IMG/VR virus record: IMGVR_UViG_3300025834_000002
Strand: one strand, 5' to 3'
DNA length: 43,301 bases
DNA from: a virus
Below are positions 24,770 through 38,803 of the stretch, in pieces. The first letter of the stretch is position 1; the number at the start of each line of letters is the position of its first letter. The translations under genes were made by a program, and so were the position numbers. The notes under the pieces are model-generated. The model worked only from the letters and a program-made list of their open reading frames with translations. It was not told the origin of the DNA and made no database searches.

Positions 24770-25825
24770 CTACATTGCTAGCACCTTCATTGCTAAGTGA
24801 TATTTGCTGCTCTTGAAGCTTTTGAAAGTTCTTAGAGTATCAATGTCCATTCCCTTGAATACCACCATCTGGAGAACTTCATCAAGCTTAATCTTGCCTT
24901 CAAGTTTAGTTATCATTGTGATGCACCTATATGAGAAAGTGGCTCTAATTCCTTGAGCTGTTGCTTGGGACCTTAATTCTCTTATGAAGTCTACCAACTC
25001 TACATTTCCTTTTGCGAGGAAAAGTTCAATGTTCCTATCATAATCAAATTTAACAACCGCGAATCTATCAAGAGTTGCTTGGTCAAGAACCATTCTACCT
25101 GTATAATTTTCGTCTGCACCATTTCCGAATGTATTGCCAGCGCTTACTACTCTAAATTCTTCATTGCAATATACTTTACCATTTGGAAATTCAAAGTACC
25201 CATTGGCTATTGCTGCATTTAGAAGAACAAGAACCTCAGGTATACTTGCGTCCATTTCATCTAAGAAGAATAATCCACCATTATTGAATGCTTTGTAAAA
25301 TTCTGTTTCATGGTATGTTCCGCCTGCATCTATAAAACCTGTAAGCTTGAACTCTTGCTGAATGCTGTTTGTGAAGTAGAAGTCCATGTCTAAATCTTTA
25401 GCTATCATTTCAAGTACATGGTTCTTACCGCTGCCAGCAGGCCCTACAAGGTATACCGGAATATTCTCTTGTATCATCTGCAATAGTAGGTCATATTTCT
25501 CATGCTTCACCATTGTAGGAACCTTTACTGCTACCGGAGCTTTAGGAGCTACAGGTAAAGGCATCTTCTTAGCTTCCATTTCATCTTTAATACTATCAGC
25601 TATTCCCTTACGGCTATCATGCATTTTAACTTCTTCTATATTATAAGTATTGTGGTTATCTTCACACCATTCAAAAGTATAATCCACATTATCTATTCTA
25701 AAAGCAGGTTTACCACTTGCAGCTGTAAAAATCTTTCTTATGGTCCATTTTAATGCTCCTTCTTTTCTTACCGCTACTGAACCTGCTGCTTTTACGCTTT
25801 TTACCACTTCATAAGTATTTCTCAT
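24770..25825 (-). CDS. AAA+ ATPase, CobS/MoxR-like (AAA_5)
   Basis: VYLVGPAGSGKN (Walker A with Asn after Lys), LFFLDEMD (Walker B), FRVVSAGN and YTGRMVLDQATLDRFAVVKFDY, which resembles the CobS C-terminal signature. Confidence 0.8.
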   Translation of the reverse strand: MRNTYEVVKSVKAAGSVAVRKEGALKWTIRKIFTAASGKPAFRIDNVDYTFEWCEDNHNTYNIEEVKMHDSRKGIADSIKDEMEAKKMPLPVAPKAPVAVKVPTMVKHEKYDLLLQMIQENIPVYLVGPAGSGKNHVLEMIAKDLDMDFYFTNSIQQEFKLTGFIDAGGTYHETEFYKAFNNGGLFFLDEMDASIPEVLVLLNAAIANGYFEFPNGKVYCNEEFRVVSAGNTFGNGADENYTGRMVLDQATLDRFAVVKFDYDRNIELFLAKGNVELVDFIRELRSQATAQGIRATFSYRCITMITKLEGKIKLDEVLQMVVFKGMDIDTLRTFKSFKSSKYHLAMKVLAM

Positions 25826-25882: not shown

Positions 25883-25911
25883 ATTATATACTAAGTAAAC
25901 TAGTTTGTAAA
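25883..25911 (-). promoter_or_regulatory. Sigma-A type promoter (the -35 overlaps the end of the upstream gene)
   Basis: Minus strand TTTACAaactagtttacttagtaTATAAT, then N5-AGTAAG. Confidence 0.7.
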
Positions 25912-27045
25912 CATATTTTTTACGTTTTTACTAAAGTTCTTACAGAACCGTTCGTAGCGCTCTCTATCTTCCAAACGCTTCACAGAATCAAGTTCTGATA
26001 TGCTCTGAATCAAACTACTATAATCAAGTTTAGATATACGCTTATTTATTGTAGTTTTACTTAAATCAACTATTAGTTTGTTCTGCTTCCAGAACTCTAA
26101 AATATCCCTTTGTTCACTGAATGCATTATCTAATACGCACCTACTATCTATTAAAGGAATACAACGCCTAGAGATACATTCATAAAATCTTTGTATACTA
26201 AACTCTTTCTTATTGTTTGCTGGTACCACATAGCTGAACTTAGCTCTGTTTACTTCTTTAAAGTATTCATTCTGTGGTATAACATCATTCCTTCCACCAT
26301 TCCAAAATCTATCGTTGGCATAAATCTTAAATTTGGAGTTCTCAGCTATTCCATTATACAAACTATCGTGCAGGTATTTCCTTCCGATATAAGTAATTGT
26401 ATATCCAAAAACAAAGTCCATATCCTTTTCTACCGCAGCAATCTCTTTTCTATAGATATACATATCATAAATAGGTAAGAACTTTACTCCCAATTCTTTC
26501 TGCTTATATACTCCAAATCTACCAACCTTACAATTTCCTGCATAAATCTCTTCCAAATTAGGCTCTAGCCAATCAACTATAAATTGGATTGTAGGAATTG
26601 CATACTTTCTGCTTATATAATAGAACGGATATGTTTGCCTATATTTTGTAAGCATACTATTAAAAGTAACTTTGAGTTCTTCACCACTATAAAATGTTTC
26701 AAACGATTCACGCATTTGTTTTGTAGGTGAAATGGAGTAAGCATAAAATAAAACTAAATCATAATCTGAACCTAGAACTCTTTTAATCTTAACATTATCT
26801 ACCTTCCACATTTGCTTGTTAGCTGCTTTACTTATAATCTTATCTAGCAATAATACCTTAACCCCTGCAGCTACTAGGCGGCTTATGAATCCATGTTCTT
26901 CATATTGCTTATATTTCTTAGCTTGACATATTACAAACGTAATTTCATTATATTTTGCTAGCCTGAGGATAAAGTATATATAAGCTCTCACAATCTCAAT
27001 TTGCACATCCATAAGATGCAGTGGTATTGTAGCCAAAATCTTCAT
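25900..27045 (-). CDS. GT-B-like glycosyltransferase resembling phage DNA beta-glucosyltransferase
   Basis: 381 aa. C-terminal block KKEFSIQRFYECISRRCIPLIDS (26143..26211) resembles, from memory, T4 beta-GT NDNFITLRVWETMASDAVMLIDE. DFVFGYTITYIGRKY resembles DVIYGGSFRSGQRE. Confidence 0.5.
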   Translation of the reverse strand: MKILATIPLHLMDVQIEIVRAYIYFILRLAKYNEITFVICQAKKYKQYEEHGFISRLVAAGVKVLLLDKIISKAANKQMWKVDNVKIKRVLGSDYDLVLFYAYSISPTKQMRESFETFYSGEELKVTFNSMLTKYRQTYPFYYISRKYAIPTIQFIVDWLEPNLEEIYAGNCKVGRFGVYKQKELGVKFLPIYDMYIYRKEIAAVEKDMDFVFGYTITYIGRKYLHDSLYNGIAENSKFKIYANDRFWNGGRNDVIPQNEYFKEVNRAKFSYVVPANNKKEFSIQRFYECISRRCIPLIDSRCVLDNAFSEQRDILEFWKQNKLIVDLSKTTINKRISKLDYSSLIQSISELDSVKRLEDRERYERFCKNFSKNVKNMFTN

Positions 27046-27112
27046 CTTCTATTCACTCCTTTTACTTTATATTCAAAAAGGAGCCTTTCGGCTCCCTTCG
27101 TTTCAATTGCTA

Positions 27113-27934
27113 CTACTTTAAACCTTTTTGAATTCTCTCCACCTCGAGTTTTACATCTGGTATAAAGCTGTTTAGGAAATACTCATCTTTCTTTAGGTAA
27201 GGTTTCATTTGGTCGTAAGTTTTCATTGGGGAACCATATCCATATTTCCAATCACTTTGTTTAATATAATCATTTACCTCAATTGCCCTAAACATTAACC
27301 TTCTCAGCATATCAGGGTGTACCATTGCGAATGCTAACTTGCTAATGTTTGTGCGCTCACTTGCTTGCTTAATTTTTATTTTGTGAATCATTCCCTCATT
27401 TTGAACGAATCCACCAAACATTATTTCCAAATTCACTCTAATACCTTTTTCCTCTATTGCTTTTACTATTTGTAATGCTTTAATGCTATTATCAATTATT
27501 TCTTGTTCGCTTGTACCTGAATTGTAGCTGATGTTCTTTATTATTGTAATTACTTTTGCTCTCTGAATTACCTTCTTGCTATTAACCATATTGGTTGGAA
27601 TGTTTTGTAGGTACCTTGGTACATTTGCTTGAAATCCACCTACATCATAGTAATTCCTGCTTACTGCTTTTGCTCCAAATTGATTCTCAGACACCTTTAA
27701 AATTTGAGTTAGCTTCTTGGCCATATCTTCCCAGCCGTTCTTAGCTAAGTCCTGCGCTTCATCATAAGTTTTTGTTTTATTAAATCCATAGTAGTAATCT
27801 GTGCTGCTTAATTTCCCCCACCTAAATATTTCATTCAGTGCTGTTTCTGCTAAGTACTTCTGAAATTCTCCCATACTATCAAAGTGCTTTGTTGCTGTTA
27901 TTCTGCTACCATCTCTTATTCTACTCTCCACCAT
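27113..27934 (-). CDS. CobT-like vWA-domain protein with degenerate MIDAS
   Basis: KVITIIKNISYNSGTSEQEIIDNSIKALQIVKAIEEKGIRVNLEIMFGGF follows the vWA pattern beta-strand, DxSxS, helix, strand, but reads YNSGTS instead of DNSGS. Confidence 0.45.
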   Translation of the reverse strand: MVESRIRDGSRITATKHFDSMGEFQKYLAETALNEIFRWGKLSSTDYYYGFNKTKTYDEAQDLAKNGWEDMAKKLTQILKVSENQFGAKAVSRNYYDVGGFQANVPRYLQNIPTNMVNSKKVIQRAKVITIIKNISYNSGTSEQEIIDNSIKALQIVKAIEEKGIRVNLEIMFGGFVQNEGMIHKIKIKQASERTNISKLAFAMVHPDMLRRLMFRAIEVNDYIKQSDWKYGYGSPMKTYDQMKPYLKKDEYFLNSFIPDVKLEVERIQKGLK

Positions 27935-28838: not shown

Positions 28839-29408
28839 TTATTCCTCTAAATTTAGGTGCCTTAATTTTCTAGGTACAAAGGCATATAAAGCAATACATC
28901 CACTATCTGCTGCATCATCATCCCACTTTACTTCACCTTTCTTATTAAGTGATTTAATAGAAGAGGTAAACCCAAGCTTACATATATGCTTAATTGTGGG
29001 CATTTTATTATCCCCATCAATACCCTTAGTTGTTCCTACTACTTTGCTCTTCCAAGCTCTAGTATCTGCACTAAATACCTTTATGCCCTGCTTCCTAGCA
29101 GTATCTACTATTGTACCAACCAAAGCTCCAGTACACTTCATATAGGTTATGCTGAGAACTCCACCTCTGTGCATTCTAATACGCTCTGTAATTATTATTA
29201 GCTTCTCAGCTTTTGGAATCAAATTTGTAAGTAGCTGCTCAATGATTCCACCTAACATAATTCTTTTATCTGACTTGCATATGCAACCTTTAAAGTTTGT
29301 TGACCTAACCTTAAGTAACTTACCATCTGCTGCAATACTTATCCCTGTTTTTGTGTAGCTTTGGTCAATTCCTATAGAAATTACTTTGTACATATAAATA
29401 CCATACAC
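28839..29408 (-). CDS. ruvC: RuvC-like Holliday junction resolvase
   Basis: ISIGIDQSYTKTG (first catalytic Asp), ERIRM, and DDDAADSGCIALYA (C-terminal acidic pair). Start is either GTG 29408 or ATG 29393. Confidence 0.75.
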   Translation of the reverse strand: MYGIYMYKVISIGIDQSYTKTGISIAADGKLLKVRSTNFKGCICKSDKRIMLGGIIEQLLTNLIPKAEKLIIITERIRMHRGGVLSITYMKCTGALVGTIVDTARKQGIKVFSADTRAWKSKVVGTTKGIDGDNKMPTIKHICKLGFTSSIKSLNKKGEVKWDDDAADSGCIALYAFVPRKLRHLNLEE

Positions 29409-30181
29409 CTACAACACTCTTCAAACGCCATTCCAAATAAGTTATTTACCATTGCTCCGAGCTTAGTATTCTTTATGAGTTTCCTGTATACATAATTTAC
29501 CTCACCTTTTCCACTCAGAATAGATTTTAGTTTCTTAGCATCTGGGAAACAGCCAACCTCATTCTCAATAGTAAAGTCACCTAGCACCTTGCGCATTTCT
29601 GCTAGCGTGTACTCATAAGTATGGTCATTAGGATAGTACATATCTTCCTTCTTAAAATGAATTGGAGTACTCAATATCAGCTTACCATTAGGTTTCAATA
29701 GCTTACCTATATTTACCATAAAGCTCCCTACTTTACCTTCTGGTATATGTTCAATAACCTCCATTGCGGATATTATATCAAATTTACCATGTTTCTTAAA
29801 TAGCTGCTTACAAAAGGTGCCCTCACAAATATCCCCATTTTCAGAATATACCAATTTCTGCTGAGCTTGCGTAAGGTAATCTAGCCCATCCAAAATACCT
29901 GCTCTAATATCCACCCCTACATATCTCAACCGCTTTGTATTAAAATCCCTAGCCATGGATTGCTGCATCTTAAGTAGGTTACCATTGCTACACCCAATAT
30001 CTAAAACATTCAGCTCATTATCCTCTGCTTCTTGTGCATTTATATACTTTGTAGCAATCAACATACGAATTACAAAAGCTAAACTAGCACTACTACTCCA
30101 TAAATTCTTGCCATCCAAAGTTCCCTCTGCTCCATCTTTTGCATAGCTTCCATTAATTATTTCTGCTTTTTTATCATTCAT
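29381..30181 (-). CDS. Class I SAM-dependent methyltransferase (not a canonical DNA MTase)
   Basis: Motif I VLDIGCSNG, then DIISAMEVIEHI and LLKPNGKLILSTP. Start MNDKKAEI in ATGA overlap with the upstream stop. No DPPY/NPPY or PCQ motif seen. Confidence 0.8.
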   Translation of the reverse strand: MNDKKAEIINGSYAKDGAEGTLDGKNLWSSSASLAFVIRMLIATKYINAQEAEDNELNVLDIGCSNGNLLKMQQSMARDFNTKRLRYVGVDIRAGILDGLDYLTQAQQKLVYSENGDICEGTFCKQLFKKHGKFDIISAMEVIEHIPEGKVGSFMVNIGKLLKPNGKLILSTPIHFKKEDMYYPNDHTYEYTLAEMRKVLGDFTIENEVGCFPDAKKLKSILSGKGEVNYVYRKLIKNTKLGAMVNNLFGMAFEECCRCMVFICTK

Positions 30182-30981
30182 AACTTTATCCTCCCTACAC
30201 CACAATTAAAGCAGGCATCACGCATATCACATTTTTGCGCTCTTTTGCAATCTCTACTGCTGCATATACCTTTTACCATCTTACCTTCTTCCAATACCCT
30301 ACGCTTATAAAACCTAATAGCTTCTAAGCGCTCAACATAATCCTCAACCTCAGTAGCATCATACTTTTGCATAAATATTTTAAAATCTTGCGTATTCTTG
30401 TCCTCCACCAATACAAAGCCCTTATGTATACCAGTCAAGTGCATATACATCATGAGCTGCTTCTTGCCGCTAGGGTGGCTAGTACAATGCTTAAATTGGA
30501 AGGTGTTCATGGACTTTATCTCTACTACCTGCTGTTCACCCATAAAATCAATTATTGCATCGGGTGTATAGCTTAACTCATAGCGCTTATTAAATCGGCT
30601 TCGGTCCATATCCCTAGCGGCTCCCAGTTCGCCCCTAATGAATAACCTTTGCCACTTCTCATGAATATAATTGCCCTCTTCAAATATACGTTTAAGGCCA
30701 CTTGGTATATTACTGGATTGAATTCGCTTATATAGCAAGCTAAGTACTTGTTCCCTATAGCAGAAATCCCCTTCACCTACAATAATTGCGCTTGCATGTA
30801 GTCCAGCTCTTTCTGCATTAAACCCATTCTTAGTAAGTAAATTATAAATTAGTTTTGATTCTTCCTCAGAGTTTGGCTTTAAGAAGAATAGCTTATTAAA
30901 CTTTTGTTCTAGCATTAAATTAACCGTGCTTAAACCTTTACCGTGCGCTTCTGCTTTAATGCTATCTCTCAGACTACTCAT
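30178..30981 (-). CDS. Cas4/RecB-family PD-(D/E)xK exonuclease with Cys cluster
   Basis: PDAIIDF...VVEIKS core, N-terminal GDFCYRE Cys, and C-terminal C-x6-C-x5-C-x5-C-x2-C. Confidence 0.7.
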   Translation of the reverse strand: MSSLRDSIKAEAHGKGLSTVNLMLEQKFNKLFFLKPNSEEESKLIYNLLTKNGFNAERAGLHASAIIVGEGDFCYREQVLSLLYKRIQSSNIPSGLKRIFEEGNYIHEKWQRLFIRGELGAARDMDRSRFNKRYELSYTPDAIIDFMGEQQVVEIKSMNTFQFKHCTSHPSGKKQLMMYMHLTGIHKGFVLVEDKNTQDFKIFMQKYDATEVEDYVERLEAIRFYKRRVLEEGKMVKGICSSRDCKRAQKCDMRDACFNCGVGRIKL

Positions 30982-31918
30982 CGTCTTCCTCCTCTTCTAT
31001 AGCTTTTTTGCTAATTCCTCTGGACTTCATAATTTCCTTTCGTATGCTAGCCATTTGGTCAAAGGATACAAAACCCCTATCAAAAAATAATGGTATTTCT
31101 GCTTCCATCATTGGATTGCAAACCTTTGATTTAATTACTTTAAGCTTCATAATCATACCAATCTTTTCACTCTCCGCAGAACTATTTATATTCTTATTTG
31201 GAATATCAATCCAAGCCCTGCGTGCAGTTCTAATTCTTACGCTTGAATAGAATCTAGGTGCCCTACCCCCAGGAGTATCATCCTTTTCCCCAAAGGCCAT
31301 AGCTCCTATCTTATCTACCACTTGGTTCATCATAACAAATGTGGTGCCTGAATACTCAATAACCTCTTCTAAAATTGGTAAGTGCTTGTGAAATAACCTA
31401 GCCCTTCCACCCATTCTAGCTTCCATAGTTTCATCATTACCAGACTTAATAGCTTTCTTTAGCTTCTCAATATCTTCCTTTGGCTTGCAAGCTGAAACCG
31501 TATCCAAAATTATTAAAGGTATTCCAGCTTCTGCAAAGTTCTGTATTTTGTTCATTGCTGCATCCCCATGTTTGGGTCTATATACCAGCATCTGCTTAGC
31601 CCTATTACCAAATTGTGCTGCTCTCTGAGCATCAAAAGTTCCTTCGGCTGGAACATATAAGCACAAATCATGCTGCCCACAGAGCTGATACCCTAGGGAT
31701 GTTTTACCAGAACTCTCAGGTCCAAATATCTCAAACATCCTTCCCTCAGGCATTCCACCTCCTAAAATATTATCTAAGTCCTCAATACCTGAGCCCCACC
31801 TTGGAATCTTCAAAATAGATTTTTTGGAACCTAGCGAATAAATAGAACCTGTTCCTTCTTTCTTCTCAATGCTAGCACATAGCCGCATTATTGCTTCTTT
31901 ATTTGTTTTTGCTGCCAT
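30974..31918 (-). CDS. recA: RecA-family recombinase
   Basis: GIEDLDNILGGGMPEGRMFEIFGPESSGKTSL (Walker A), LIILDTVSA (Walker B), acidic C-terminus EEEEDDE. Confidence 0.85.
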   Translation of the reverse strand: MAAKTNKEAIMRLCASIEKKEGTGSIYSLGSKKSILKIPRWGSGIEDLDNILGGGMPEGRMFEIFGPESSGKTSLGYQLCGQHDLCLYVPAEGTFDAQRAAQFGNRAKQMLVYRPKHGDAAMNKIQNFAEAGIPLIILDTVSACKPKEDIEKLKKAIKSGNDETMEARMGGRARLFHKHLPILEEVIEYSGTTFVMMNQVVDKIGAMAFGEKDDTPGGRAPRFYSSVRIRTARRAWIDIPNKNINSSAESEKIGMIMKLKVIKSKVCNPMMEAEIPLFFDRGFVSFDQMASIRKEIMKSRGISKKAIEEEEDDE

Positions 31919-34608
31919 TATCTGTTCAACCCCTTCATATATAGCGTACTATTGTACTTCTTTATTCTCTCCACATATACACTCTTTTTGAATTCCAATG
32001 CGCCACTCTCTTGTAATGCTCTAATTACCTTAGCATTAATTTGTCTCTTCGGAACTCTCTCTAGGAAATCCTCTAAGCTCTTAAATCTGCCTTTCTTACG
32101 CTCTGCTTCTATTGCTGCTGCTGCTTTCTCTCCTACATTCTTTATATTTGAAATACCAGCAGATAAAACATCTTCACCTTCAAATTTTACCATCTTATAC
32201 ATTGAACCAAAATTAACATGCGGCAATAAAACAATACCACCATCTCTTACATAAATTGTCTCAAATCTGAATCTGTCCTCTTTCTTAGCATATTTTAGAG
32301 TAACATACCAGAACTTCTCTGGGTGATATACCTTATAATACATCTGTTCAATGCTTATTACCCCATAGCCTGCAGCATGTCCTTTGTTAAAGGAATATAT
32401 AAGCAATACATTAAATATATGCTCAGCTTCTTTCTTTGAGTAACCTCCTGCCTTAGCGCCTTTATAGAATATTACCTTAAGTTCTGCTATCTCTCGGTCT
32501 CTAAATTTAATAGCACGACCTCTACCTTTCAGAACCTTCAATATCCTATCTACTTCACCCCATTCATACTTACCAATCTCCCTACAAATCTTAACTATCT
32601 GCTCTTGGTATATTATTGTGCCATATGTTTCCTTTGAATATCTGAACCAAGGACTGCTCTTAACATCCTCTAGGTTGCGCTTGTTATTTGCATAAGCTTC
32701 TGGCATTTTTAAACTCATAGGTCCAGGTCTATTTAAAGCAGAACCAGCAAGTATATCTTCTACACAATCTGCTTCAATCTGCTGCAATATGTTCTTTGCA
32801 CCATTTGACTCAAATTGAAATATACCATCTGTATTTCCCTTTCCAAATTCCTTCATAATCTTTTCATCTTCGCACCATGAGTATTCAAAATATTCTCCAG
32901 TAAGTTCTTGCATTTCTTTGAGGACAGACATTGTTCTAAGGCCTAATATATCAAATTTAACAACCCTTATTAATTCCAAATTACCCAAATCATAAGCTGT
33001 AACTATTTTACCTCCATGCTTCTCTAGCGCGACGTAATCAATCAAATCCGCACCTGTAATTGCTACACCTGCAGCATGTGTTCCATAATACTTAATTTTC
33101 TTATACATCTTTGAAAAGTGCTTCACTATATTATCAAACTGCTTGTTTAACATCTTGCATTCAATTTTCTTTTGGACCTCTTCATAGTCAAATATTTCCT
33201 CTTTTACATTGTCCTTAAGAAACTTCTTAATCATTAATTTATCTTGCACTTCCTCTACTCCGCATACCTTAAATAAATCATTTAGTAAATTATCTACTTT
33301 ATACAATCCATAAGATACAACCTGAGCTGAGAACCCCTCATACTTTTTAACCAAATACTCTATTACCTCATGGCGCCTATCTGTTTCAAAATCAAGGTCT
33401 ACATCGGGAACCTTCTTCTTATCCATTCGCATGAATCGGTCAAAATCAAGGTTAAAATATAGGCTATCAATGTTTGTAATATCTAGTGCATAAGCTGTCA
33501 AGCTATTACAAACTGAACCTCTTCCAGGTCCAACCATTATGCCTTGCTCTTTAGTCCACTTAACATAATCTTGAACTATCAGAAAGTAATCTACAAAGCC
33601 AAGATGTGAAATAACATCTATCTCATGCTTACACCTTGCTATGGCTTCTTTAGTATACTTTCCCTTCTTCTTTAAACCACGCTTAACTTCTTTAATTAAT
33701 GTACCTAGAGAATCTTCACCTTGCACTGTTGGGAGCTTTAAGGGTAGTTGGTCTAAAATATCAGCCTCACATTTATCTACTATTTCATCTAGGTTAGCTA
33801 CCATCTTCTTAGCTATTCTATACGGGTCCTCAAACTCTTTACCGTGCATCTTCACAAATCGCTCTATTATTTCCTCTTCGGTTGGCATATATCGTTCCGA
33901 ATAAGTATCTCCCATTTCATGCCCTGACATTTTATGCATTTTACAATAGCTATCATAATCTGCCTTAGCTCCATAGTGCGAATCTGAGGTTAGTATGCAC
34001 TTTACCTTATTAGCTCTAGCCAGCTGCATAATCTTAGTATTCACTCTCTCCTGCAAACCGGTAGCGGTATCTACTTCTGCTCCCGGCTTATTGTGCAATT
34101 TATAAGGTTGTATCTCTATATAGAAGTTAGCTCCAAAAATAGCCTTATATTTCTTTAATGCTTTCTCAGCTAATTTCATATCACCTACAGCAATCATCTG
34201 ATTAATAAAGCCTCCTACGCACGCTGATGTGCATATCAAGCCTTCCGAATATTTCTCTAATAGTGCAAAATCTACTATTGGTTTATAATACATCTGCTCG
34301 AGGTTAGCTATTGTAAGAATTCTATTAAGGTTCTTATACCCAGCTAAGTTCATCGCAAATAAGCATAAGTGGTACCGCTTAACGCTAGCGCCATCAAACT
34401 TAGGTTGGAAGTAAGCCTCTACACCCAAGATTGATTTTATACCCACCTCTTTACAAGCGAAATATGTTTCTGCTAGCCCTGAGCTTGAACCGTGGTTGCT
34501 TGTGCTGAGCGCTTTGTGCCCCATATCTAGCGCTAGTTTAGCAAGCTGTATTGGCTTTCCAAATCCATCAAACAAACTAAATTCATCATGCCTATGCAAA
34601 TCAATCAT
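31918..34608 (-). CDS. dnaE: DNA polymerase III alpha subunit (DnaE-type, compact 896 aa)
   Basis: N-terminal PHP motif DLHRHDEFSLFDG, VPDVDLDFE, GTHAAGVAI, KFDILGL, IYQEQ, and a C-terminal HhH (NIKNVGEKAAAAI). Confidence 0.9.
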   Translation of the reverse strand: MIDLHRHDEFSLFDGFGKPIQLAKLALDMGHKALSTSNHGSSSGLAETYFACKEVGIKSILGVEAYFQPKFDGASVKRYHLCLFAMNLAGYKNLNRILTIANLEQMYYKPIVDFALLEKYSEGLICTSACVGGFINQMIAVGDMKLAEKALKKYKAIFGANFYIEIQPYKLHNKPGAEVDTATGLQERVNTKIMQLARANKVKCILTSDSHYGAKADYDSYCKMHKMSGHEMGDTYSERYMPTEEEIIERFVKMHGKEFEDPYRIAKKMVANLDEIVDKCEADILDQLPLKLPTVQGEDSLGTLIKEVKRGLKKKGKYTKEAIARCKHEIDVISHLGFVDYFLIVQDYVKWTKEQGIMVGPGRGSVCNSLTAYALDITNIDSLYFNLDFDRFMRMDKKKVPDVDLDFETDRRHEVIEYLVKKYEGFSAQVVSYGLYKVDNLLNDLFKVCGVEEVQDKLMIKKFLKDNVKEEIFDYEEVQKKIECKMLNKQFDNIVKHFSKMYKKIKYYGTHAAGVAITGADLIDYVALEKHGGKIVTAYDLGNLELIRVVKFDILGLRTMSVLKEMQELTGEYFEYSWCEDEKIMKEFGKGNTDGIFQFESNGAKNILQQIEADCVEDILAGSALNRPGPMSLKMPEAYANNKRNLEDVKSSPWFRYSKETYGTIIYQEQIVKICREIGKYEWGEVDRILKVLKGRGRAIKFRDREIAELKVIFYKGAKAGGYSKKEAEHIFNVLLIYSFNKGHAAGYGVISIEQMYYKVYHPEKFWYVTLKYAKKEDRFRFETIYVRDGGIVLLPHVNFGSMYKMVKFEGEDVLSAGISNIKNVGEKAAAAIEAERKKGRFKSLEDFLERVPKRQINAKVIRALQESGALEFKKSVYVERIKKYNSTLYMKGLNR

Positions 34609-35630
34609 ATTATGAAGAACTCCTCACCATAAATTCTTAGGTTTCTGTGCTTCGTTAGCGCTACTTGGTCGTCTATGTCCGCTAGCACTAAATCAAAAGG
34701 ACTTCTAAGAGTTGAAAGGACAGGGTCTGTACCATTCACTTCCCTACGCTCTCTACCATATACATAATCTTTCTCATTATATTCGTATATGTCTGAATCT
34801 TTGTCAGGTTTGAAAAGGTTTGTACATCTCCCAGTTCTAGCTGTATTCACATAAAATGCAGCTGGTGCGTGAATATCTATTAAATCAACAAGCAGGGGAT
34901 AATAGTCAAGTAGCGCACTCCACATCTTATATGCCATTACGTTATCTGTTTCTGGCTGTATCTGCTTATCAATTCTATGTCTAACAAAATTTATTGCGCT
35001 TCCCAAATCCATCGACATCCAATAGTAAGTTTCCATAGCTCTTGGCAATATAAACCTTGCATCTAATAAACTAATTTCTTTACTATCTAACATTTCACAA
35101 TACAGCTTTTTTGATTCCCTAATAAGCCATTCATACCTACCACCAAAATCATCCTTAGCAATTCCCTCAAACCATTCCTCATAATTCCCTAAATAATTGC
35201 CAGGACTATTCTCAATACTTGTTGGAACTACCGCTGCTTTATTTGTCCACCACTTATCTGCTGAGCATTCCGCAGAGAATGTTGCTGTTCTATATCTTAA
35301 AATGTGAGTAACATCTTGTCCGCTAATTCCCTCAAAAAGGAAGTTTATCTTTATTGTCTCGAGTGCTGAAGGAAGCATCTTGCCCTTAAATATCATATAA
35401 ATTATTTTATCCTTTTCATATTCTGATAAATCATTATTGTGAATTGGATTATCTTCCCACGTTGCAGTCGCAAAATTTACTAAATAATCTCTCAAATCCT
35501 GCATTGTAGGAGCTTTCTCAATTGTTACATTAATAGCTTCTACATTATTCTTAAACTCTGTTGTTGGCTTTTCACCAAATCTAATTGGCATTGGGAAATT
35601 CACTGGTTTCAAATTATTATTTACTGGCAT
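34605..35630 (-). CDS. Divergent ThyX-fold (flavin-dependent thymidylate synthase-like) protein
   Basis: ETIKINFLFEG...LRYRTATFSAECS (RYR at 35289..35297 replaces RHR) and ARFILPRAMETYYWMSMDLGSAINFVRHRID align by eye to the two ThyX signature blocks. Has N- and C-terminal extensions. Confidence 0.6.
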   Translation of the reverse strand: MPVNNNLKPVNFPMPIRFGEKPTTEFKNNVEAINVTIEKAPTMQDLRDYLVNFATATWEDNPIHNNDLSEYEKDKIIYMIFKGKMLPSALETIKINFLFEGISGQDVTHILRYRTATFSAECSADKWWTNKAAVVPTSIENSPGNYLGNYEEWFEGIAKDDFGGRYEWLIRESKKLYCEMLDSKEISLLDARFILPRAMETYYWMSMDLGSAINFVRHRIDKQIQPETDNVMAYKMWSALLDYYPLLVDLIDIHAPAAFYVNTARTGRCTNLFKPDKDSDIYEYNEKDYVYGRERREVNGTDPVLSTLRSPFDLVLADIDDQVALTKHRNLRIYGEEFFII

Positions 35631-36184
35631 ATTTGTATCCCCCTTAATTTTTTTAAAGTCTTTAAATTTTTAATTCTGAAAACCAAATCACCAGTTTCCC
35701 CTTGATTATATTTACTATCTATTAGGAAAACCTTATACCCAAATCTTGATATACAATTTGCATTCGCTCGATTATCTTCCACCACAAATTCTACTTCTGG
35801 AAATTTGGTAACTATTTCTATGTGCTTGTTCTCGCTATGAAACAAAACATCATATGGTAAATTATTAAACTCTAACCACAGCTTAGTCTGAATCCAAAGG
35901 TCTGGATATTTGTGCATAGGCCTTGCGGTGATTAATATTATCTTATAGTCAACATCCCTCAGAGCGCACAACAGCTCTGCTGCTCCTTCTAATACGGGTA
36001 ACTTAATCTTATATCCGCTAGTTCTATATTCGTCCTTGAGCTTCTTATACTTAGCATATGTTAAAAAGGCTTTCATTTCGTTTAGGTCTGAAAAACTACT
36101 ACCTATTTTAAGATTAACAAAATCTATCCAACAATCGGGGTAATTATTTAATACACCGTCTATATCAAAGGCACAACATTTCAT
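35621..36184 (-). CDS. HAD-superfamily phosphatase, 5'(3')-deoxyribonucleotidase-like
   Basis: Motif I FDIDGVL near the N-terminus, ILITAR, VEDN. ATGA overlap with the upstream stop. Confidence 0.65.
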   Translation of the reverse strand: MKCCAFDIDGVLNNYPDCWIDFVNLKIGSSFSDLNEMKAFLTYAKYKKLKDEYRTSGYKIKLPVLEGAAELLCALRDVDYKIILITARPMHKYPDLWIQTKLWLEFNNLPYDVLFHSENKHIEIVTKFPEVEFVVEDNRANANCISRFGYKVFLIDSKYNQGETGDLVFRIKNLKTLKKLRGIQICQ

Positions 36185-37074
36185 ATGTTTAAACACCTCT
36201 CTACAATATTATTTGTTTTAACAGAATGGTCTAGCTGAGCATATCTTCCAAGCAACCTTATACCACAAAAGCCTGTCATTTTCAATTCGTTAACAATCTG
36301 AGTTTTTGTACACCACCTATCAGCTTTGCCATTCCACAAAACCTTTATAGGCTGTGAGCTTTCTAATATTCTACCTTGCTTGCCAACCTTTGTCATTCTA
36401 TATACTGCCGAATCTGAACTTAAATCGTAAATATAATCTAAATCCAAATTAGCAGTAAAAACATCATTACCACGTTCTAAATATTTATAAAAATGAACAT
36501 CCCTTAACATATTATCTAAGAAGAAACCGCATCCGCATAATGCTGCTAGCTCTTGCAAATTTATGGTAGAAATTAAATCCTCATATTCGTCAAAAACCAT
36601 TTGACCATTTCTAAGAATATACCCTAGCGAATGCTGATTAATATTAATACTTTCTACATCTGCAAATATAATATGTTTACTATTATTTTTAATCAATTTC
36701 TGCACCAAGTTAGCTTTTAGCATATCCACACCAAAAATTTCATTGCTGCCAGCGCTCATGCTTTCACTAACCGAAACTCCACCTCTAGCCTTTGCGTTAT
36801 ACATCTCGTTTGCAAACTCTGGTACGCTGCGGCTTAAACCTCCATCTGTTAAATATCCAACTCTGAAGTATCTCATTTCTGATTCATTTATTCCCAACCT
36901 ACCTATCAAGGTAGCACTATACCTATCTATTTTTAATATTCTTGGCCCCATCTGAGAACCTGATAACTGACCACCAATATTTCCTCTTCCTGCAATCAAA
37001 GTATAACCTTTATGTTTGAGCATTTCAATGGCTATCAAGCCAGTTATTCCTCCACCAATTATATACTTACCCAT
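36181..37074 (-). CDS. FAD/NAD(P)-binding Rossmann flavoprotein, UDP-galactopyranose mutase-like
   Basis: KYIIGGGITGLIAIEMLKHKGYTLIAGRGNIGGQL (GxGxxG...IGG) and C-terminal LLGRYAQLDHSV resemble Glf-type proteins. Confidence 0.5.
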   Translation of the reverse strand: MGKYIIGGGITGLIAIEMLKHKGYTLIAGRGNIGGQLSGSQMGPRILKIDRYSATLIGRLGINESEMRYFRVGYLTDGGLSRSVPEFANEMYNAKARGGVSVSESMSAGSNEIFGVDMLKANLVQKLIKNNSKHIIFADVESININQHSLGYILRNGQMVFDEYEDLISTINLQELAALCGCGFFLDNMLRDVHFYKYLERGNDVFTANLDLDYIYDLSSDSAVYRMTKVGKQGRILESSQPIKVLWNGKADRWCTKTQIVNELKMTGFCGIRLLGRYAQLDHSVKTNNIVERCLNI

Positions 37075-37570
37075 ATATATGTCTCACCAACCTATCAAAA
37101 TCTGCATACTTAACCTTTACCTTACGGTTAATTGTGCTTGCATAAAATAGACTTTTAAGAATTGCCTCATGTACTTCTAAAGAAGAACCATGCTGCTCTG
37201 AGGACTCTTTTATATCTTCACTTTCCACCAAAATAAGTAAAGGGTCCAAACCACTCAGCCTTTTATCTATTGAATCATAACTGCTAAAGTCTAAACCTCT
37301 CAGAGCGCCATATGTTTGCTCTGTCAAGTGAAGTCTATCAAAAATTATATTATTACTACTAGCTGCAATCTGCAATAAAACCTCCAACCTCACATTGCTA
37401 ATTTCTTGCGCTAGCTTTAGTTCCCTTGGAGTAGCAATCTTCATATTTGGAAGAACCTTTACCCAATCCGAATACTCATCATGAAATATTACATACTTAA
37501 GTCTATCTGCTAACTTCTTAGCCAAAATACTCTTTCCAACTCTATCTACACCTTCAATTATTATATTCAT
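37067..37570 (-). CDS. Thymidylate kinase-like dNMP kinase
   Basis: IIIEGVDRVGKS P-loop and FDRLHLTEQTYG (the DRY/DRH region of Tmk). Confidence 0.65.
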   Translation of the reverse strand: MNIIIEGVDRVGKSILAKKLADRLKYVIFHDEYSDWVKVLPNMKIATPRELKLAQEISNVRLEVLLQIAASSNNIIFDRLHLTEQTYGALRGLDFSSYDSIDKRLSGLDPLLILVESEDIKESSEQHGSSLEVHEAILKSLFYASTINRKVKVKYADFDRLVRHIYG

Positions 37571-37929
37571 TTCTCTACCTCCAATTTCTCCACATTCATC
37601 TGAATTTTAGTAATTACTGAAGCAAATAACTCTTCGGCATCTATGCCACTAAATATTGCTAAATTAAGAACTGTTATAAATACATCCGCTAACTCTTCCA
37701 TTTTCTCGGCTAAATCATATGTTGAATTCCTATGAGTTTTCCACCGCTTATCTGCTTTTAATAGCTCTCCTAGCTCCTCTACTATTGCACACATATGATA
37801 CTTGAATAATTCTGGATTATCTTTTGTTGCTAGCTTTCCAACCACTATTTGCTGATATGCTCTCTGAGCTTCATATAAGGACTTTAAGGACTCCCTTTCA
37901 GGAGCCCCCATATCTTTATTACCATTCAT
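37567..37929 (-). CDS. All-alpha NTP pyrophosphohydrolase (MazG / dimeric dUTPase-like)
   Basis: AIVEELGELLKADKRWK and MEELADVF acidic metal-binding pairs. Preferred start MNGNKDM (GAGGA RBS), overlapping the SSB stop. Confidence 0.65.
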   Translation of the reverse strand: MNGNKDMGAPERESLKSLYEAQRAYQQIVVGKLATKDNPELFKYHMCAIVEELGELLKADKRWKTHRNSTYDLAEKMEELADVFITVLNLAIFSGIDAEELFASVITKIQMNVEKLEVEK

Positions 37930-38803
37930 TTTCGTCGTCCTCTTCATCATCCTCGTCTGACTCGTCTGCTGCTTCTAGCTTCTTAATGTAATACTTCTCC
38001 GGCTTCTTAGGCTCCACCTTAATCTTGCGCTTTTTACATAATGCATAGAGTTCTTTTGGAGTGAGGTCCTCATACTCATTTTCTTCTTCCTCATCCTCCT
38101 CATCCTCTTCCTCTTCTTCCTCTACACGCTTCTTAGGTTTAGATTTGGACTTAGACTTTTTAGGAGCTTCCTCCTCTTCTTCTTCATCATCTTCGTCCTC
38201 ATCTTCATCATACTTAGCCTTAGACTTAGCTTTTACTTTCTTGCTTTTTTTATTTCTTCTAGGAGTTTCGTCCTCATCCTCATCTTCATCCGAATCCTCA
38301 GGATATGCTTTATCTAATATAGAAAGTACCTTGCTTTCACTAAGTGCCTTTGCTGCTTTATTCTTAAATTTAACCTTATCCATCGGAACAACCGAGTAGG
38401 TGGTATTAGTCTGAGAACCATTCTTTGTGATTATATAATCTCTATCAGTCATGGACTCATAAGTCTCACACATTCCAATAAGAGATGGTATAGGTGAACA
38501 ATTGTTTACCGCTCCCATTAGAAGTTTAGTCTCCTTAGCTTCATAATCCCATACAGACCAACAATATAAATCTCTATGTCTCAAGCTTTCATCATCGTGG
38601 TGCTTGCAATCTCTATCAAATATCTCTTGGCAAGGAACATTAATTCCTGCTTCAAAACTATCGTGAAACTGTATTTTTAAACCATCATCAATTTCCTGCA
38701 AGAATCTTACTCTAACCTTTACACCTGACTTGAAGTACATTATCTTACCTTTGTTTGCGCCACTGCGCTTAACATCATTTTTAATATCACTCATTAATCC
38801 CAT
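37919..38803 (-). CDS. ssDNA-binding protein (T4 gp32-like core) with charged linker, HeH motif and acidic tail ending in Trp
   Basis: VRVRFLQE..FHDSF..C..C.HH..YCWSVW resembles the gp32 AVIRFLPS..H..C..C..C..YWANI layout. Lies between primase and the nucleotide genes. C-terminus DEDDEEDDENEW. Confidence 0.55.
   Translation of the reverse strand: MGLMSDIKNDVKRSGANKGKIMYFKSGVKVRVRFLQEIDDGLKIQFHDSFEAGINVPCQEIFDRDCKHHDDESLRHRDLYCWSVWDYEAKETKLLMGAVNNCSPIPSLIGMCETYESMTDRDYIITKNGSQTNTTYSVVPMDKVKFKNKAAKALSESKVLSILDKAYPEDSDEDEDEDETPRRNKKSKKVKAKSKAKYDEDEDEDDEEEEEEAPKKSKSKSKPKKRVEEEEEEDEEDEEEENEYEDLTPKELYALCKKRKIKVEPKKPEKYYIKKLEAADESDEDDEEDDENEW
38069..38302 (-). repeat. Low-complexity GAA/GAT/AAG coding tract (poly-D/E and poly-K blocks)
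   Basis: Read directly; the plus strand is a long pyrimidine-rich tcttcctc tract. Confidence 0.7.

What the first reader, a model, noticed from the sequence alone, without database searches (positions are those of the whole stretch)
25900..27045. Candidate DNA glycosyltransferase (T4 beta-GT-like) in a Firmicute siphophage
This 381-aa protein has no membrane segment. Its C-terminal block EFSIQRFYECISRRCIPLIDS (26143..26211) resembles, from my memory of the sequence, the T4 beta-glucosyltransferase block NFITLRVWETMASDAVMLIDE. The preceding DFVFGYTITYIGRKY resembles DVIYGGSFRSGQRE. The gene sits in a middle transcription unit, not near the tail or lysis genes. Together with the ThyX-fold cluster, it would fit sugar decoration of a hydroxymethylated base. 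That is an anti-restriction strategy best known from T-even phages, not from small Firmicute siphophages.
Basis: partly seen in the sequence, partly recalled or inferred. Interest (0 to 1): 0.7.

Follow-up and report, generated by a model that had tools for sequence, protein, structure and literature searches.

The report
Likely phage DNA sugar-adding enzyme
This phage gene encodes a soluble sugar-transferring enzyme from a previously uncharacterised family that, judging from its fold and from the genes it travels with in many unrelated phages, most likely coats the phage's own DNA bases with sugar to escape bacterial defences.

Summary
The ORF (25900-27045, minus strand, 381 aa) is real. With a 115-sequence alignment AlphaFold gives a confident model (pLDDT 96.7), and every top PDB match is a GT-B glycosyltransferase.

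They are truly homologous at profile level: HHalign 96.7%, E=4e-10, C-terminal donor-binding domain only. R222, R286 and E289 align with T4 R195, R269 and E272.

The protein is not a member of the T4 beta-GT family. It has no PF09198 hit, no detectable N-domain similarity, and T4 beta-GT is absent from the top 50 Foldseek PDB hits. Its family (about 350 representative clusters) is nearest to GT47/exostosin and CgeB-like Glyco_trans_1_2.

Function is inferred from gene neighbourhood. In 8 of 10 contexts of 10 kb or more, a thymidylate-synthase-type gene lies within 10 kb. These are gp42-like ThyA homologs with the cytosine-specific Asp, or a divergent ThyX-like protein, usually with dNMP kinase, MazG, nucleotidases or NDP-sugar synthesis genes. 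Geobacillus phage GR1 pairs the same ThyX-like module with a T4-beta-GT-like enzyme.

Most likely it glycosylates a 5-hydroxymethylpyrimidine in phage DNA (confidence about 0.65). This would be a new variant of a known strategy.

The parts
25900..27045 (-). Gene for a 381-aa soluble GT-B fold glycosyltransferase, the candidate DNA glycosyltransferase. pI 9.3, net charge +17.
   Evidence: ORF. AF2 pLDDT 96.7, pTM 0.93. All top Foldseek PDB hits are GT-B enzymes. Family of 353 representatives. Charge.
26374..26418 (-). Donor-binding block 1, DFVFGYTITYIGRKY (residues 210-224). F213 and R222 are near-invariant in the family. It aligns with T4 beta-GT D183-R195 (DVIYGGSFRSGQR): G214=G187, T216=S189, R222=R195.
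   Evidence: Conservation. HHalign alignment. T4 family invariants.
26143..26205 (-). Donor-binding block 2, EFSIQRFYECISRRCIPLIDS (residues 281-301). S283, R286, E289, C295 and P297 are near-invariant. R286 and E289 align with T4 beta-GT R269 and E272.
26560..26574 (-). N-domain motif D158-W-L-E161-P162, directly after a beta-strand. D158 and E161 are near-invariant. Candidate catalytic base and acceptor-site residues (inferred).
   Evidence: Conservation. Secondary structure of the model. No sequence alignment to T4 D100 was obtained.
27075..27095 (-). Hairpin GGAGCC-GAAA-GGCTCC followed by TTTTT on the coding strand, between the DUF7192 gene and the GT gene. Terminator-like.
27056..27062 (-). 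Ribosome-binding site AAAGGAG, 10 nt upstream of the GT start codon.
   Evidence: Sequence read.
25883..25911 (-). Near-consensus sigma-70-like promoter (TTTACA-17-TATAAT, 11 of 12 matches) overlapping the GT stop codon. It would drive the downstream AAA_5 gene.
   Evidence: This is a consensus match only.
34605..35630 (-). Divergent ThyX-fold protein (341 aa). It is the only candidate pyrimidine C5-modifying enzyme in the genome and the proposed maker of the glycosyl acceptor base.
   Evidence: Pfam Thy1 1.5e-17. TIGR02170 34.5 bits against a cut-off of 87.9. RYR replaces RHR and SADKW replaces SGRY. No PDB hit by sequence. Occupies the slot of the ThyA homolog in AB434P2.
35621..36196 (-). 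HAD-superfamily phosphatase (191 aa). Either a nucleotidase or a sugar-phosphate phosphatase of the module.
   Evidence: Weak NT5C hit. phrog_420, 415 and 1238. 28% identity to the HAD part of the AB434P2 HAD/APH protein.
36181..37074 (-). 297-aa ORF of unknown function inside the module. Only weak N-terminal hits to dinucleotide-binding flavoenzymes.
37067..37570 (-). P-loop dNMP (thymidylate-type) kinase, 167 aa.
37567..37950 (-). MazG / dimeric-dUTPase-type NTP pyrophosphohydrolase (127 aa). Candidate enzyme for excluding the canonical dNTP.
   Evidence: 38% identity to the AB434P2 homolog.
31918..34608 (-). PolIII-alpha-type replicative polymerase. It is the syntenic anchor next to which the GT sits in relatives.
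27113..27934 (-). DUF7192 protein, the conserved upstream neighbour of the GT (also in L005 and L016).
24770..25825 (-). CobS-like AAA_5 ATPase, the conserved downstream neighbour (also in L005). Probably not part of the modification pathway.

Best explanation
The gene encodes a soluble two-Rossmann-domain (GT-B) glycosyltransferase that uses a nucleotide sugar as donor.

Shown: the fold, and the homology of its C-terminal domain to the UDP-binding domain of T4 beta-glucosyltransferase, including the Arg/Glu pair that in T4 holds the pyrophosphate and ribose.

Inferred: after replication the enzyme transfers a sugar onto the hydroxyl of a 5-hydroxymethylpyrimidine in the phage's own DNA. That base would be 5hmC, as in relatives with gp42-like hydroxymethylases, or 5hmU.

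Inferred pathway for making the modified base before replication, using the module just upstream of the PolIII-alpha gene:
- The divergent ThyX-fold enzyme installs the C5 substituent on a dNMP.
- The P-loop kinase phosphorylates the modified dNMP.
- The MazG-type pyrophosphatase and the HAD phosphatase deplete the competing canonical nucleotide.
- The phage polymerase incorporates the modified dNTP.

Sugar-coated DNA would resist restriction enzymes and other nucleic-acid-targeting defences.
For: Fold:
- AF2 pLDDT 96.7.
- Foldseek PDB hits are all GT-B enzymes: YjiC 6e-7, OleD, MshA, WaaA, OGT, EXT1/2, BshA.
- BFVD hits include a protein annotated 'DNA beta-glucosyltransferase' (8.5e-7) and the GT of Bacillus phage SP-15, whose DNA is glycosylated (PMC5977210).

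Donor-domain homology to T4 beta-GT:
- HHalign 96.7%, E=4.4e-10.
- The aligned residues are invariant in both families.
- Both families also touch PF13524.

Context, 8 of 10 loci of 10 kb or more with a TS-type gene within 10 kb:
- AB434P2: MazG, kinase, HAD/APH kinase, cytidylyltransferase, unknown, ThyA homolog, GT (overlapping the ThyA homolog), PolIII-alpha.
- L011 and L015: YfbR-like, ThyX-like, kinase, GT, PolIII-alpha.
- L016: the same module, with the GT next to DUF7192 as in the window.
- Pseudoalteromonas phage XG4: ThyA homolog, NTP-transferase/APH, second GT-B, family GT, C5 DNA methylase.
- L001: two ThyA paralogs plus three GT-A genes within 10 kb.
- L007: ThyA homolog two genes away.
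- L013: YfbR-like, deoxyribosyltransferase-like, kinase, GT.

Other support:
- The ThyA homologs of AB434P2, XG4 and L001 carry Asp at the E. coli N177 and L143 positions, like T4 gp42 (references verified; role of these positions from PMC13326640).
- Geobacillus phage GR1 pairs the same divergent ThyX-like subfamily (44% identity) with a full-length T4-beta-GT-like GT: HHalign 81.6%, 310 columns.
- All 11 contexts examined are phage.
- The protein has no membrane segment.
Against: - No direct evidence that DNA is the acceptor.
- The nearest sequence families (GT47, CgeB-like, RXYLT1) act on polysaccharides or glycoproteins.
- The N-terminal acceptor domain has no detectable similarity to T4 beta-GT, and T4 beta-GT is not in the top 50 Foldseek PDB hits.
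- In the window the GT is about 7.6 kb from the ThyX-like gene. It sits in its own cassette, with a terminator upstream and lower GC.
- No ThyX-fold hydroxymethylase is known in the literature I could search. The ThyX-like protein could be an ordinary, if divergent, thymidylate synthase.
- The window lacks recognisable NDP-sugar synthesis genes.
- Thymidylate synthases are common in phages, so co-occurrence alone is weaker than adjacency.
- Vibrio phage pv27 shows no annotated TS gene within 9 kb of its family member.
Confidence: 0.65

Rival explanations
1. It is a glycosyltransferase for a non-DNA acceptor, such as host wall polysaccharide or teichoic acid, a virion or host protein, or a small molecule. 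Its proximity to nucleotide-metabolism genes would then be incidental clustering of early/middle genes.
For: - Pfam relatives are GT47/exostosin, CgeB-like and RXYLT1_C, all polysaccharide or glycoprotein enzymes.
- Foldseek hits include EarP, OGT, WaaA and macrolide GTs.
- In the window the gene is an insulated, lower-GC cassette between DUF7192 and a CobS-like ATPase, not inside the nucleotide module.
- Pyle et al. note that about 65% of phage GT contigs have no neighbouring base-modification gene.
Against: - No signal peptide or membrane segment.
- The gene is never seen next to structural or lysis genes in this clade.
- It is directly embedded between kinase/TS-type genes and the replicase in L011, L015 and AB434P2.
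- It lies in a complete ThyA / NDP-sugar / GT / C5-methylase cluster in phage XG4.
- The ThyX-like module recruits a different, T4-beta-GT-like GT in GR1.
Confidence: 0.22
2. It is a true member (ortholog) of the T4 beta-glucosyltransferase family (GT63, PF09198) that transfers glucose from UDP-glucose to 5hmC in beta linkage.
For: - C-terminal domain homology at HHalign 96.7%.
- Similar length (381 aa against 351 aa).
- Same GT-B fold.
Against: - No PF09198 hit for the target or for any of 115 relatives, whereas all 42 T4 beta-GT homologs retrieved have one.
- The family profile finds no T4 beta-GT chain in PDB at E up to 10.
- The N-domain is not alignable.
- T4 beta-GT is not among the top 50 structural hits, whereas it is a top hit for the validated GT-B DNA GTs of Pyle et al..
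- T4 R191 is not conserved; the target has T218 there.
Confidence: 0.03
3. It glycosylates a nucleotide or other soluble precursor (for example a modified dNMP or dNTP, or a cofactor) before DNA synthesis, rather than polymerised DNA.
For: Tight linkage to dNMP kinase, nucleotidases and TS-type enzymes that all act on mononucleotides.
Against: - All characterised phage DNA glycosylations occur on DNA after replication (PMC13326640, section 26 title and abstract; bioRxiv 10.1101/2023.12.21.572611).
- A polymerase would have to accept a bulky glycosylated dNTP.
- The target is strongly basic (net +17), which suits polyanion binding. Charge is not diagnostic, though, because the T4 family is not basic.
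Confidence: 0.07

Closest known systems
T4 DNA beta-glucosyltransferase (GT63, Pfam PF09198; PDB 1BGT, 1J39, 1SXP)
   Same: - GT-B fold, similar size, soluble, phage-encoded.
- C-terminal NDP-sugar-binding domain is homologous (HHalign 96.7%).
- Matched motifs: G214/T216/R222 with G187/S189/R195, and R286/E289 with R269/E272.
- Likely the same job, putting sugar on a hydroxymethylpyrimidine in DNA.
   Different: - No PF09198 match.
- N-terminal acceptor domain is unrelated at sequence level.
- The R191 equivalent is missing.
- Not among the top 50 structural neighbours.
- Partnered here with a ThyX-fold enzyme rather than the ThyA-fold gp42.
GT-B DNA glycosyltransferases GT53, GT66 and GT94 of metavirome clusters (Pyle et al., bioRxiv 10.1101/2023.12.21.572611; Cell Rep 2024)
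   Same: - Phage GT-B enzymes in hypermodification clusters.
- Contig 53 combines a HAD/APH kinase, a cytidylyltransferase and a GT-B. AB434P2 has the same accessory set next to a member of the target's family.
   Different: - Those enzymes are 419-429 aa long, and T4 beta-GT is among their top Foldseek hits.
- They act downstream of C5-methyltransferase plus TET-like 5mYOX, a post-replicative route to 5hmC.
- The target's family sits with thymidylate-synthase-type enzymes, a pre-replicative route.
GT47 / exostosin, CgeB-like Glyco_trans_1_2 (PF13524) and RXYLT1_C glycosyltransferases
   Same: - Closest sequence families: 58, 17 and 9 of 115 relatives give hits.
- The consensus block SKFTLIIPSYD..FS..RF.E.....C.PLI resembles the GT47 signature (the GT47 signature is from my own knowledge).
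- EXT1/2 appears among Foldseek hits at 3.9e-4.
   Different: - The target itself scores below every curated cut-off: PF13524 gives 16.3 bits against 25, and PF03016 gives no hit.
- Those families act on polysaccharides or glycoproteins, mostly in secretory or membrane settings. This protein is cytoplasmic, phage-encoded and linked to nucleotide-modification genes.
RB69 / DLP3 / RL38J1 5-hydroxycytosine glycosylation systems (PMC13326640)
   Same: Same logic: a TS-homolog makes a modified dCMP, a dedicated nucleotide kinase and dCTPase support it, GT-B transferases act on DNA, and NTP-transferase/kinase fusions make the NDP-sugar. Phage XG4 carries such a fusion next to the target's family member.
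   Different: - Those GTs are GT4-like (BshA, MshA, PimA neighbours).
- Their TS homologs carry D169N. The ThyA homologs next to the target's family keep D169, which argues for hydroxymethyl rather than hydroxy chemistry.
Base J glucosyltransferase JGT of kinetoplastids
   Same: If the acceptor here is 5hmU, the product would be a base-J-like glycosyl-hydroxymethyluracil.
   Different: - JGT is a GT-A fold enzyme.
- Its 5hmU is made on DNA by JBP dioxygenases, not from a nucleotide pool.

Membership tests
T4 beta-glucosyltransferase family (GT63, PF09198) | Significant full-length match to the family HMM | tested here: not met
   No PF09198 hit for the target at E up to 10, nor for any of 115 relatives at E up to 0.01. 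All 42 T4 beta-GT homologs retrieved carry PF09198.
T4 beta-glucosyltransferase family (GT63, PF09198) | GT-B fold with two Rossmann-like domains | tested here: met
   AF2 pLDDT 96.7. All top Foldseek PDB hits are GT-B enzymes.
T4 beta-glucosyltransferase family (GT63, PF09198) | UDP-binding residues of the C-domain (S189, R191, R195, R269, E272) | tested here: inconclusive
   HHalign 96.7% aligns T216, R222, R286 and E289 with S189, R195, R269 and E272. R191 aligns with T218 and is not conserved.
T4 beta-glucosyltransferase family (GT63, PF09198) | N-terminal acceptor domain with catalytic Asp100 and the DNA-binding, base-flipping surface | tested here: not met
   The profile-profile alignment covers only target residues 183-341 and no N-domain columns align. 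The near-invariant D158 after a beta-strand could be an analogous base, but this could not be checked in 3D.
T4 beta-glucosyltransferase family (GT63, PF09198) | Transfers glucose from UDP-glucose to 5hmC in duplex DNA | not testable with these tools
   Needs an enzyme assay or nucleoside mass spectrometry.
GT47 / Exostosin (PF03016) | Match to the family HMM at the curated threshold | tested here: not met
   The target has no PF03016 hit. 58 of 115 relatives give weak hits, the best 1.1e-6, so the family is GT47-like rather than a member.
Glyco_trans_1_2 (PF13524, CgeB-like) | Match to the family HMM at the curated threshold (25 bits) | tested here: not met
   The target scores 16.3 bits, E=0.0096, over residues 237-321. 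17 of 115 relatives hit, the best 1.1e-7. About 17 of 42 T4 beta-GT homologs also carry this hit.
Phage DNA-hypermodification glycosyltransferases (functional class) | Encoded next to an enzyme that creates a hydroxylated pyrimidine (ThyA-type hydroxymethylase/hydroxylase or 5mYOX) | tested here: met
   Family members are adjacent or near: gp42-like ThyA homologs in AB434P2, XG4 and L001, and the ThyX-like protein in L011, L015 and L016. In the window the ThyX-like gene is 7.6 kb upstream on the same strand.
Phage DNA-hypermodification glycosyltransferases (functional class) | Co-occurrence with a dedicated dNMP kinase, enzymes that exclude the canonical nucleotide, or NDP-sugar synthesis genes | tested here: met
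   - Window: kinase, MazG and HAD.
- Relatives: YfbR-like, deoxyribosyltransferase-like, cytidylyltransferase and NTP-transferase/APH.
Phage DNA-hypermodification glycosyltransferases (functional class) | Glycosylated nucleoside present in virion DNA and dependent on the enzyme | not testable with these tools
   No isolate of this phage exists. The isolated relatives AB434P2/P3 and GR1 have no published DNA analysis in the searched library.

The most novel reading that the evidence does not exclude
The divergent ThyX-fold protein (34605-35630) may be a flavin-dependent pyrimidine-nucleotide hydroxymethylase, or another C5-hydroxyl-generating enzyme. That would be a non-homologous replacement for the ThyA-fold gp42-type enzyme found at the same genomic slot in the related phage AB434P2. 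The 381-aa protein would then be the founding member of a new, GT47-like family of DNA glycosyltransferases. Together they would form a previously undescribed route to glycosylated DNA, used by a clade of PolIII-alpha-encoding siphophages of Clostridia and Bacilli.
Probability: 0.4. Interest if true: 0.8.

Novelty: new variant of a known kind. Interest (0 to 1): 0.62.

Why it matters
- Sugar-coated DNA is a major phage counter-defence. It blocks restriction enzymes and CRISPR nucleases, and it complicates sequencing and phage engineering.
- Known DNA glycosyltransferases come mainly from T-even-like phages of Proteobacteria and from metavirome clusters built around ThyA-type or TET-type enzymes.
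- If correct, this finding adds a new GT-B lineage of about 350 representative clusters, found so far only in phages among the contexts sampled.
- It would extend DNA glycosylation to small siphophages of gut Firmicutes.
- It points to a ThyX-fold enzyme as the possible source of the acceptor base, which would be new enzymology for the flavin-dependent thymidylate synthase family.
- It gives testable material, because isolated phages carry the same modules: Agathobaculum phages AB434P2/P3 and Geobacillus phage GR1.

Tried and rejected
- Megablast of 20 kb of the window against INPHARED phages found no match.
- Word-indexed homolog searches found only 3-5 proteins. The exhaustive HMMER search was needed to reveal the family.
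- phmmer and profile searches of PDB with the target or the family found nothing meaningful.
- AF2 with a 3-sequence alignment gave a poor model (pLDDT 46) and I discarded it.
- HHalign of the 3-sequence profile, or of the 115-sequence profile, against the single T4 sequence was weak (0.1% and 22.6%). Only profile against profile was decisive.
- The search for related loci failed with alignments A2 and A3 because no conserved 7-10 column stretch exists, and found no IMG/VR relative with A4.
- Look-ups of P0004, P0006 and P0009 returned contigs too short to be informative.
- PHROGs gave no useful hit for the GT, and NCBIfam gave none.
- Supplementary tables of the Pyle et al. preprint hold no sequences, so direct comparison with GT53, GT66 and GT94 was impossible. 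I compared only lengths and Foldseek neighbours.
- A literature search for T4 beta-GT residue roles found nothing in the held library. I took the roles from family invariance and from my own knowledge of Morera et al. 1999 and Lariviere et al. 2003.
- Net charge was considered as a discriminator for DNA binding and rejected, because the T4 beta-GT family is itself not basic.
- I considered that the GT might belong with the flanking DUF7192 / CobS-like pair. That pair occurs widely without GTs (phrog_249 is annotated 'porphyrin biosynthesis'), and the GT moves relative to it among relatives, so I treat them as neighbours only.
Full report
OBSERVATION

The ORF at 25900-27045 on the minus strand (ATG start, 381 aa) is present as described. 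The block EFSIQRFYECISRRCIPLIDS is residues 281-301, window 26143-26205. DFVFGYTITYIGRKY is residues 210-224, window 26374-26418.

The T4 sequence I used, which contains them, matches PDB 1BGT over all 351 residues.

There is no credible membrane segment. The highest 19-residue hydropathy mean is 1.62, on a charged stretch that is part of a Rossmann helix and strand in the model.

The window is a complete phage genome of about 43.2 kb, assembled circularly with a 127-nt terminal overlap. It was recovered from independent samples. All genes are on one strand. It has an SPP1-type portal, an HK97-type capsid, TerS and TerL, and no sheath, so it is a siphophage. The holin and NlpC/P60 endolysin are at 40.8-41.8 kb. 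The GT gene therefore lies in the replication and early/middle part of the genome, far from tail and lysis genes.

IS THE RESEMBLANCE TO T4 BETA-GT MORE THAN CHANCE?

Pairwise it is not. BLASTP gives E=0.55, although the best HSP does pair the two C-terminal blocks. Pfam gives only a sub-threshold Glyco_trans_1_2 hit: 16.3 bits against a cut-off of 25, over residues 237-321. PDB sequence searches find nothing.

The word-indexed search of 5.8 billion proteins found only two relatives. The exhaustive HMMER search found 353 representative clusters, mostly 350-380 aa long.

A 115-sequence alignment shows near-invariant D158, E161, F213, R222, Y261, S283, R286, E289, C295 and P297. I also built a 25-sequence alignment of bona fide T4 beta-GT homologs, all carrying PF09198. 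Its invariant residues are D100, G188, R191, Y261, R269 and E272, with near-invariant E22, S189 and R195.

Profile-profile comparison of the two alignments gives 96.7% probability, E=4.4e-10, over 146 columns. It covers target residues 183-341 and T4 residues 153-314. DFVFGYT...R222 pairs with DVIYGGS...R195, and FS..R286F.E289 pairs with ITLR269VWE272.

From my knowledge of the T4 structures, R195 and R269 contact the pyrophosphate and E272 the ribose. R191 has no equivalent in the target, which has T218 there.

WHAT IT IS

With the deep alignment AlphaFold2 gives pLDDT 96.7 and pTM 0.93. A first attempt with three sequences gave pLDDT 46 and was discarded.

Foldseek against PDB returns only GT-B glycosyltransferases at the top: YjiC 6e-7, UGT109A1, OleD/OleI, MshA, WaaA, OGT, EXT1/2 3.9e-4, EarP and BshA. 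T4 beta-GT is not in the top 50.

Foldseek against viral models returns:
- uncharacterised phage proteins at the top (best 7e-9, TM 0.60);
- a protein annotated 'DNA beta-glucosyltransferase' at 8.5e-7;
- the GT of Bacillus phage SP-15;
- a cyanophage 'Exostosin GT47' protein.

Scanning all 115 relatives against Pfam gives Exostosin_GT47 for 58, Glyco_trans_1_2 for 17, RXYLT1_C for 9 and PF09198 for none. About 17 of the 42 T4 beta-GT homologs also carry a PF13524 hit, so PF13524 is the shared bridge between the two families.

Conclusion on identity: this is a GT-B, NDP-sugar-dependent transferase from an uncharacterised family. Its donor domain is GT47/CgeB-like and remotely homologous to that of T4 beta-GT. 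Its acceptor domain is unrelated at sequence level. It is not a member of GT63.

WHAT IT ACTS ON: EVIDENCE FROM CONTEXT

The window module, read along the coding strand, is:
- primase (38803-39732);
- SSB-like protein;
- MazG/dUTPase_2-type pyrophosphatase (37567-37950);
- P-loop dNMP kinase (37067-37570);
- 297-aa unknown;
- HAD phosphatase (35621-36196);
- ThyX-like protein (34605-35630);
- PolIII-alpha, RecA, PD-(D/E)XK nuclease, SAM methyltransferase and RuvC-like nuclease;
- small ORFs;
- DUF7192, GT and CobS-like AAA_5.

The nearest isolated relative is Agathobaculum phage AB434P2: PolIII-alpha 50% identical, RecA 58%, TerL 45%. Its order is MazG, thymidylate-kinase-like, HAD/APH-like kinase, cytidylyltransferase, unknown, ThyA homolog, a member of the target's GT family (overlapping the ThyA gene), then PolIII-alpha and RecA.

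Other contexts:
- L011 and L015: primase ... MazG, deoxyribosyltransferase-like, YfbR-like nucleotidase, ThyX-like, kinase, GT, PolIII-alpha.
- L016: the same module, with the GT a few kb downstream beside DUF7192, as in the window.
- L005: DUF7192, GT, AAA_5.
- Pseudoalteromonas phage vB_Psh_XG4 (outside this clade): ThyA homolog, NTP-transferase/APH fusion (the architecture of the RB69 and DLP3 UDP-arabinose synthases, PMC13326640), a second GT-B, the family GT, then a C5 DNA methylase.
- L001, a 251-kb phage with a T4-type portal: two ThyA paralogs and three GT-A genes within 10 kb.
- L007: a ThyA homolog two genes away.
- L013, another phage with a T4-type portal: YfbR-like, deoxyribosyltransferase-like, kinase, GT.
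- Vibrio phages of about 191 kb: a member preceded by a protein with a cytidylyltransferase-like domain.

In total, eight of ten contexts of 10 kb or more have a TS-type gene within 10 kb, and all contexts examined are phage.

WHICH BASE?

The ThyA homologs beside family GTs in AB434P2, XG4 and L001 have Asp at the E. coli N177 position, Asp at the L143 position and Thr or Cys at the H147 position. This matches T4 gp42 dCMP hydroxymethylase. They retain D169. The reference sequences were verified against PDB 1B49 and 1AOB.

N177 sets uracil versus cytosine specificity. L143 correlates with hydroxymethyl versus methyl products. D169N marks 5-hydroxy-dCMP synthases (PMC13326640).

These homologs are therefore predicted to be dCMP hydroxymethylases, despite AB434P2's 'deoxyuridylate hydroxymethyltransferase' annotation. 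That implies 5hmC as the acceptor for the family in those phages.

In the window, the only candidate C5-modifying enzyme is the ThyX-like protein. It is strongly divergent:
- TIGR02170 scores 34.5 bits against a cut-off of 87.9.
- No solved ThyX is found by phmmer.
- RYR replaces RHR, and SA(D/E)KW replaces the SGRY phosphate-binding motif.
- The AR..LP and NF...R.D...Q.E blocks are kept, and there are N- and C-terminal extensions (T. maritima reference verified).

The same subfamily occurs in Geobacillus phage GR1 at 44% identity. There it lies beside a nitroreductase-type flavin reductase, a kinase, a YfbR-like protein, a deoxyribosyltransferase-like protein and an annotated glycosyltransferase. 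That GT does not belong to the target's family. It matches the T4 beta-GT family profile over both domains: 81.6% probability, 310 columns.

Two different GT-B lineages recruited to the same ThyX-like module argue that the ThyX-like enzyme supplies what the GT modifies.

MECHANISM

Shown: the fold, the donor-domain homology and the conserved neighbourhood.

Inferred:
1. The ThyX-like enzyme makes a 5-hydroxymethyl (or similar) dNMP.
2. The kinase phosphorylates it.
3. MazG and the HAD phosphatase deplete the canonical competitor.
4. PolIII-alpha incorporates the modified nucleotide.
5. The GT then transfers a sugar from an NDP-sugar to the base hydroxyl on DNA, giving resistance to nucleases.

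The window lacks obvious NDP-sugar synthesis genes, so a host NDP-sugar such as UDP-glucose is the likely donor.

The GT gene is an insulated cassette. A terminator-like hairpin with a T-run sits upstream (27075-27095). The gene has its own RBS (27056-27062). A near-consensus promoter overlaps its stop codon (25883-25911). Its GC content is 0.32 against 0.367 for the genome. This is consistent with its variable position among relatives.

RIVALS

- A non-DNA acceptor remains possible, at about 0.22. The nearest sequence families act on polysaccharides, and in the window the gene is 7.6 kb from the ThyX-like gene.
- True GT63 membership is effectively excluded.
- Action on free nucleotides is unlikely given precedent.

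COMPARISON WITH WHAT IS KNOWN, AND NOVELTY

Phage DNA glycosylation is well known. Examples are the T-even phages, RB69/DLP3/RL38J1 (PMC13326640) and the metavirome GT-A and GT-B enzymes (bioRxiv 10.1101/2023.12.21.572611).

The validated GT-B enzymes GT53, GT66 and GT94 are 419-429 aa long and have T4 beta-GT among their top structural hits. The target differs on both counts.

I found no description of this GT family, or of a ThyX-type partner, in the searched literature. The search was limited to the held library.

I therefore rate the finding as a new variant of a known kind. The most novel reading not excluded by the evidence is that the ThyX-fold enzyme is a hydroxymethylase (probability about 0.4).

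Noticed in passing
window 34605-35630 (-); also L011 8595-9506, L015 8423-9478, L016 3508-4563, L017 12001-12969: A distinct subfamily of ThyX-fold proteins (303-351 aa). The dUMP-phosphate motif SGRY is replaced by SA(D/E)KW, RHR is sometimes RYR, and there are N- and C-terminal extensions. It scores far below the ThyX equivalog cut-off and is always found in a module with a dNMP kinase, nucleotidases and a glycosyltransferase. It may not be an ordinary thymidylate synthase.
   Followed up: partly
L008 3838-4500 (Agathobaculum phage AB434P2, WAX05085.1): This gene is annotated 'deoxyuridylate hydroxymethyltransferase'. It carries Asp at the E. coli ThyA N177 and L143 positions, like T4 gp42, so it is more likely a dCMP hydroxymethylase and the annotation is probably wrong.
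   Followed up: partly
L017 7158-13424 (Geobacillus phage GR1, OK896991.1): This phage carries a module of deoxyribosyltransferase-like, thioredoxin, YfbR-like, a 459-aa GT resembling T4 beta-GT over its full length (HHalign 81.6%), a kinase, RNase HI, a nitroreductase-type flavin reductase and the divergent ThyX-like protein, next to a PHP-domain polymerase. It is an isolated phage in which the ThyX-plus-GT hypothesis could be tested.
   Followed up: partly
L001 (251-kb contig) and L014: Genes in these phage contigs contain many in-frame TAG codons: 59 in ten L001 genes, with no in-frame TAA or TGA. The database proteins read them as Gln. These phages therefore use a TAG-to-Gln recoded genetic code.
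   Followed up: partly
window 1-127 and 43175-43301: An exact 127-nt direct repeat at the two ends of the window. It is an assembly overlap, indicating a complete genome that is circular or terminally redundant, about 43.17 kb long.
   Followed up: yes
window 21502-22050 (-): A 182-aa protein whose C-terminal two-thirds is an extremely charged low-complexity repeat (EEEEKPKKGKKEEPKK-like units, long poly-E and poly-D runs). It has no Pfam hit. A 50%-identical counterpart occurs in L005. It could be a DNA mimic or a nucleic-acid-binding or packaging protein.
   Followed up: no
window 24770-25825 (-) and 27113-27934 (-): A CobS-like AAA_5 ATPase (phrog_249, annotated 'porphyrin biosynthesis') and a DUF7192 protein flank the GT. 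The trio, or pairs from it, recur in L005 and L016. Their function is unknown. They may form a CobS/CobT-like pair unrelated to glycosylation.
   Followed up: partly
window 36181-37074 (-): A 297-aa ORF between the kinase and the HAD phosphatase has no Pfam or PHROG hit. It gives only weak N-terminal matches to dinucleotide-binding flavoenzymes. It may be an additional, unrecognised enzyme of the modification module.
   Followed up: partly
window 12532-15036 (-): An 834-aa fusion of an SPP1 gp7-like minor capsid protein 2 domain with a C-terminal DUF3626 domain.
   Followed up: no
window 29381-30205 (-): A class I SAM-dependent methyltransferase (Methyltransf_23/12/25; PHROG 'tRNA methyltransferase') lies between the PD-(D/E)XK nuclease and the RuvC-like gene. 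It is not a recognisable DNA C5- or N6-methylase family, and its substrate is unknown.
   Followed up: no
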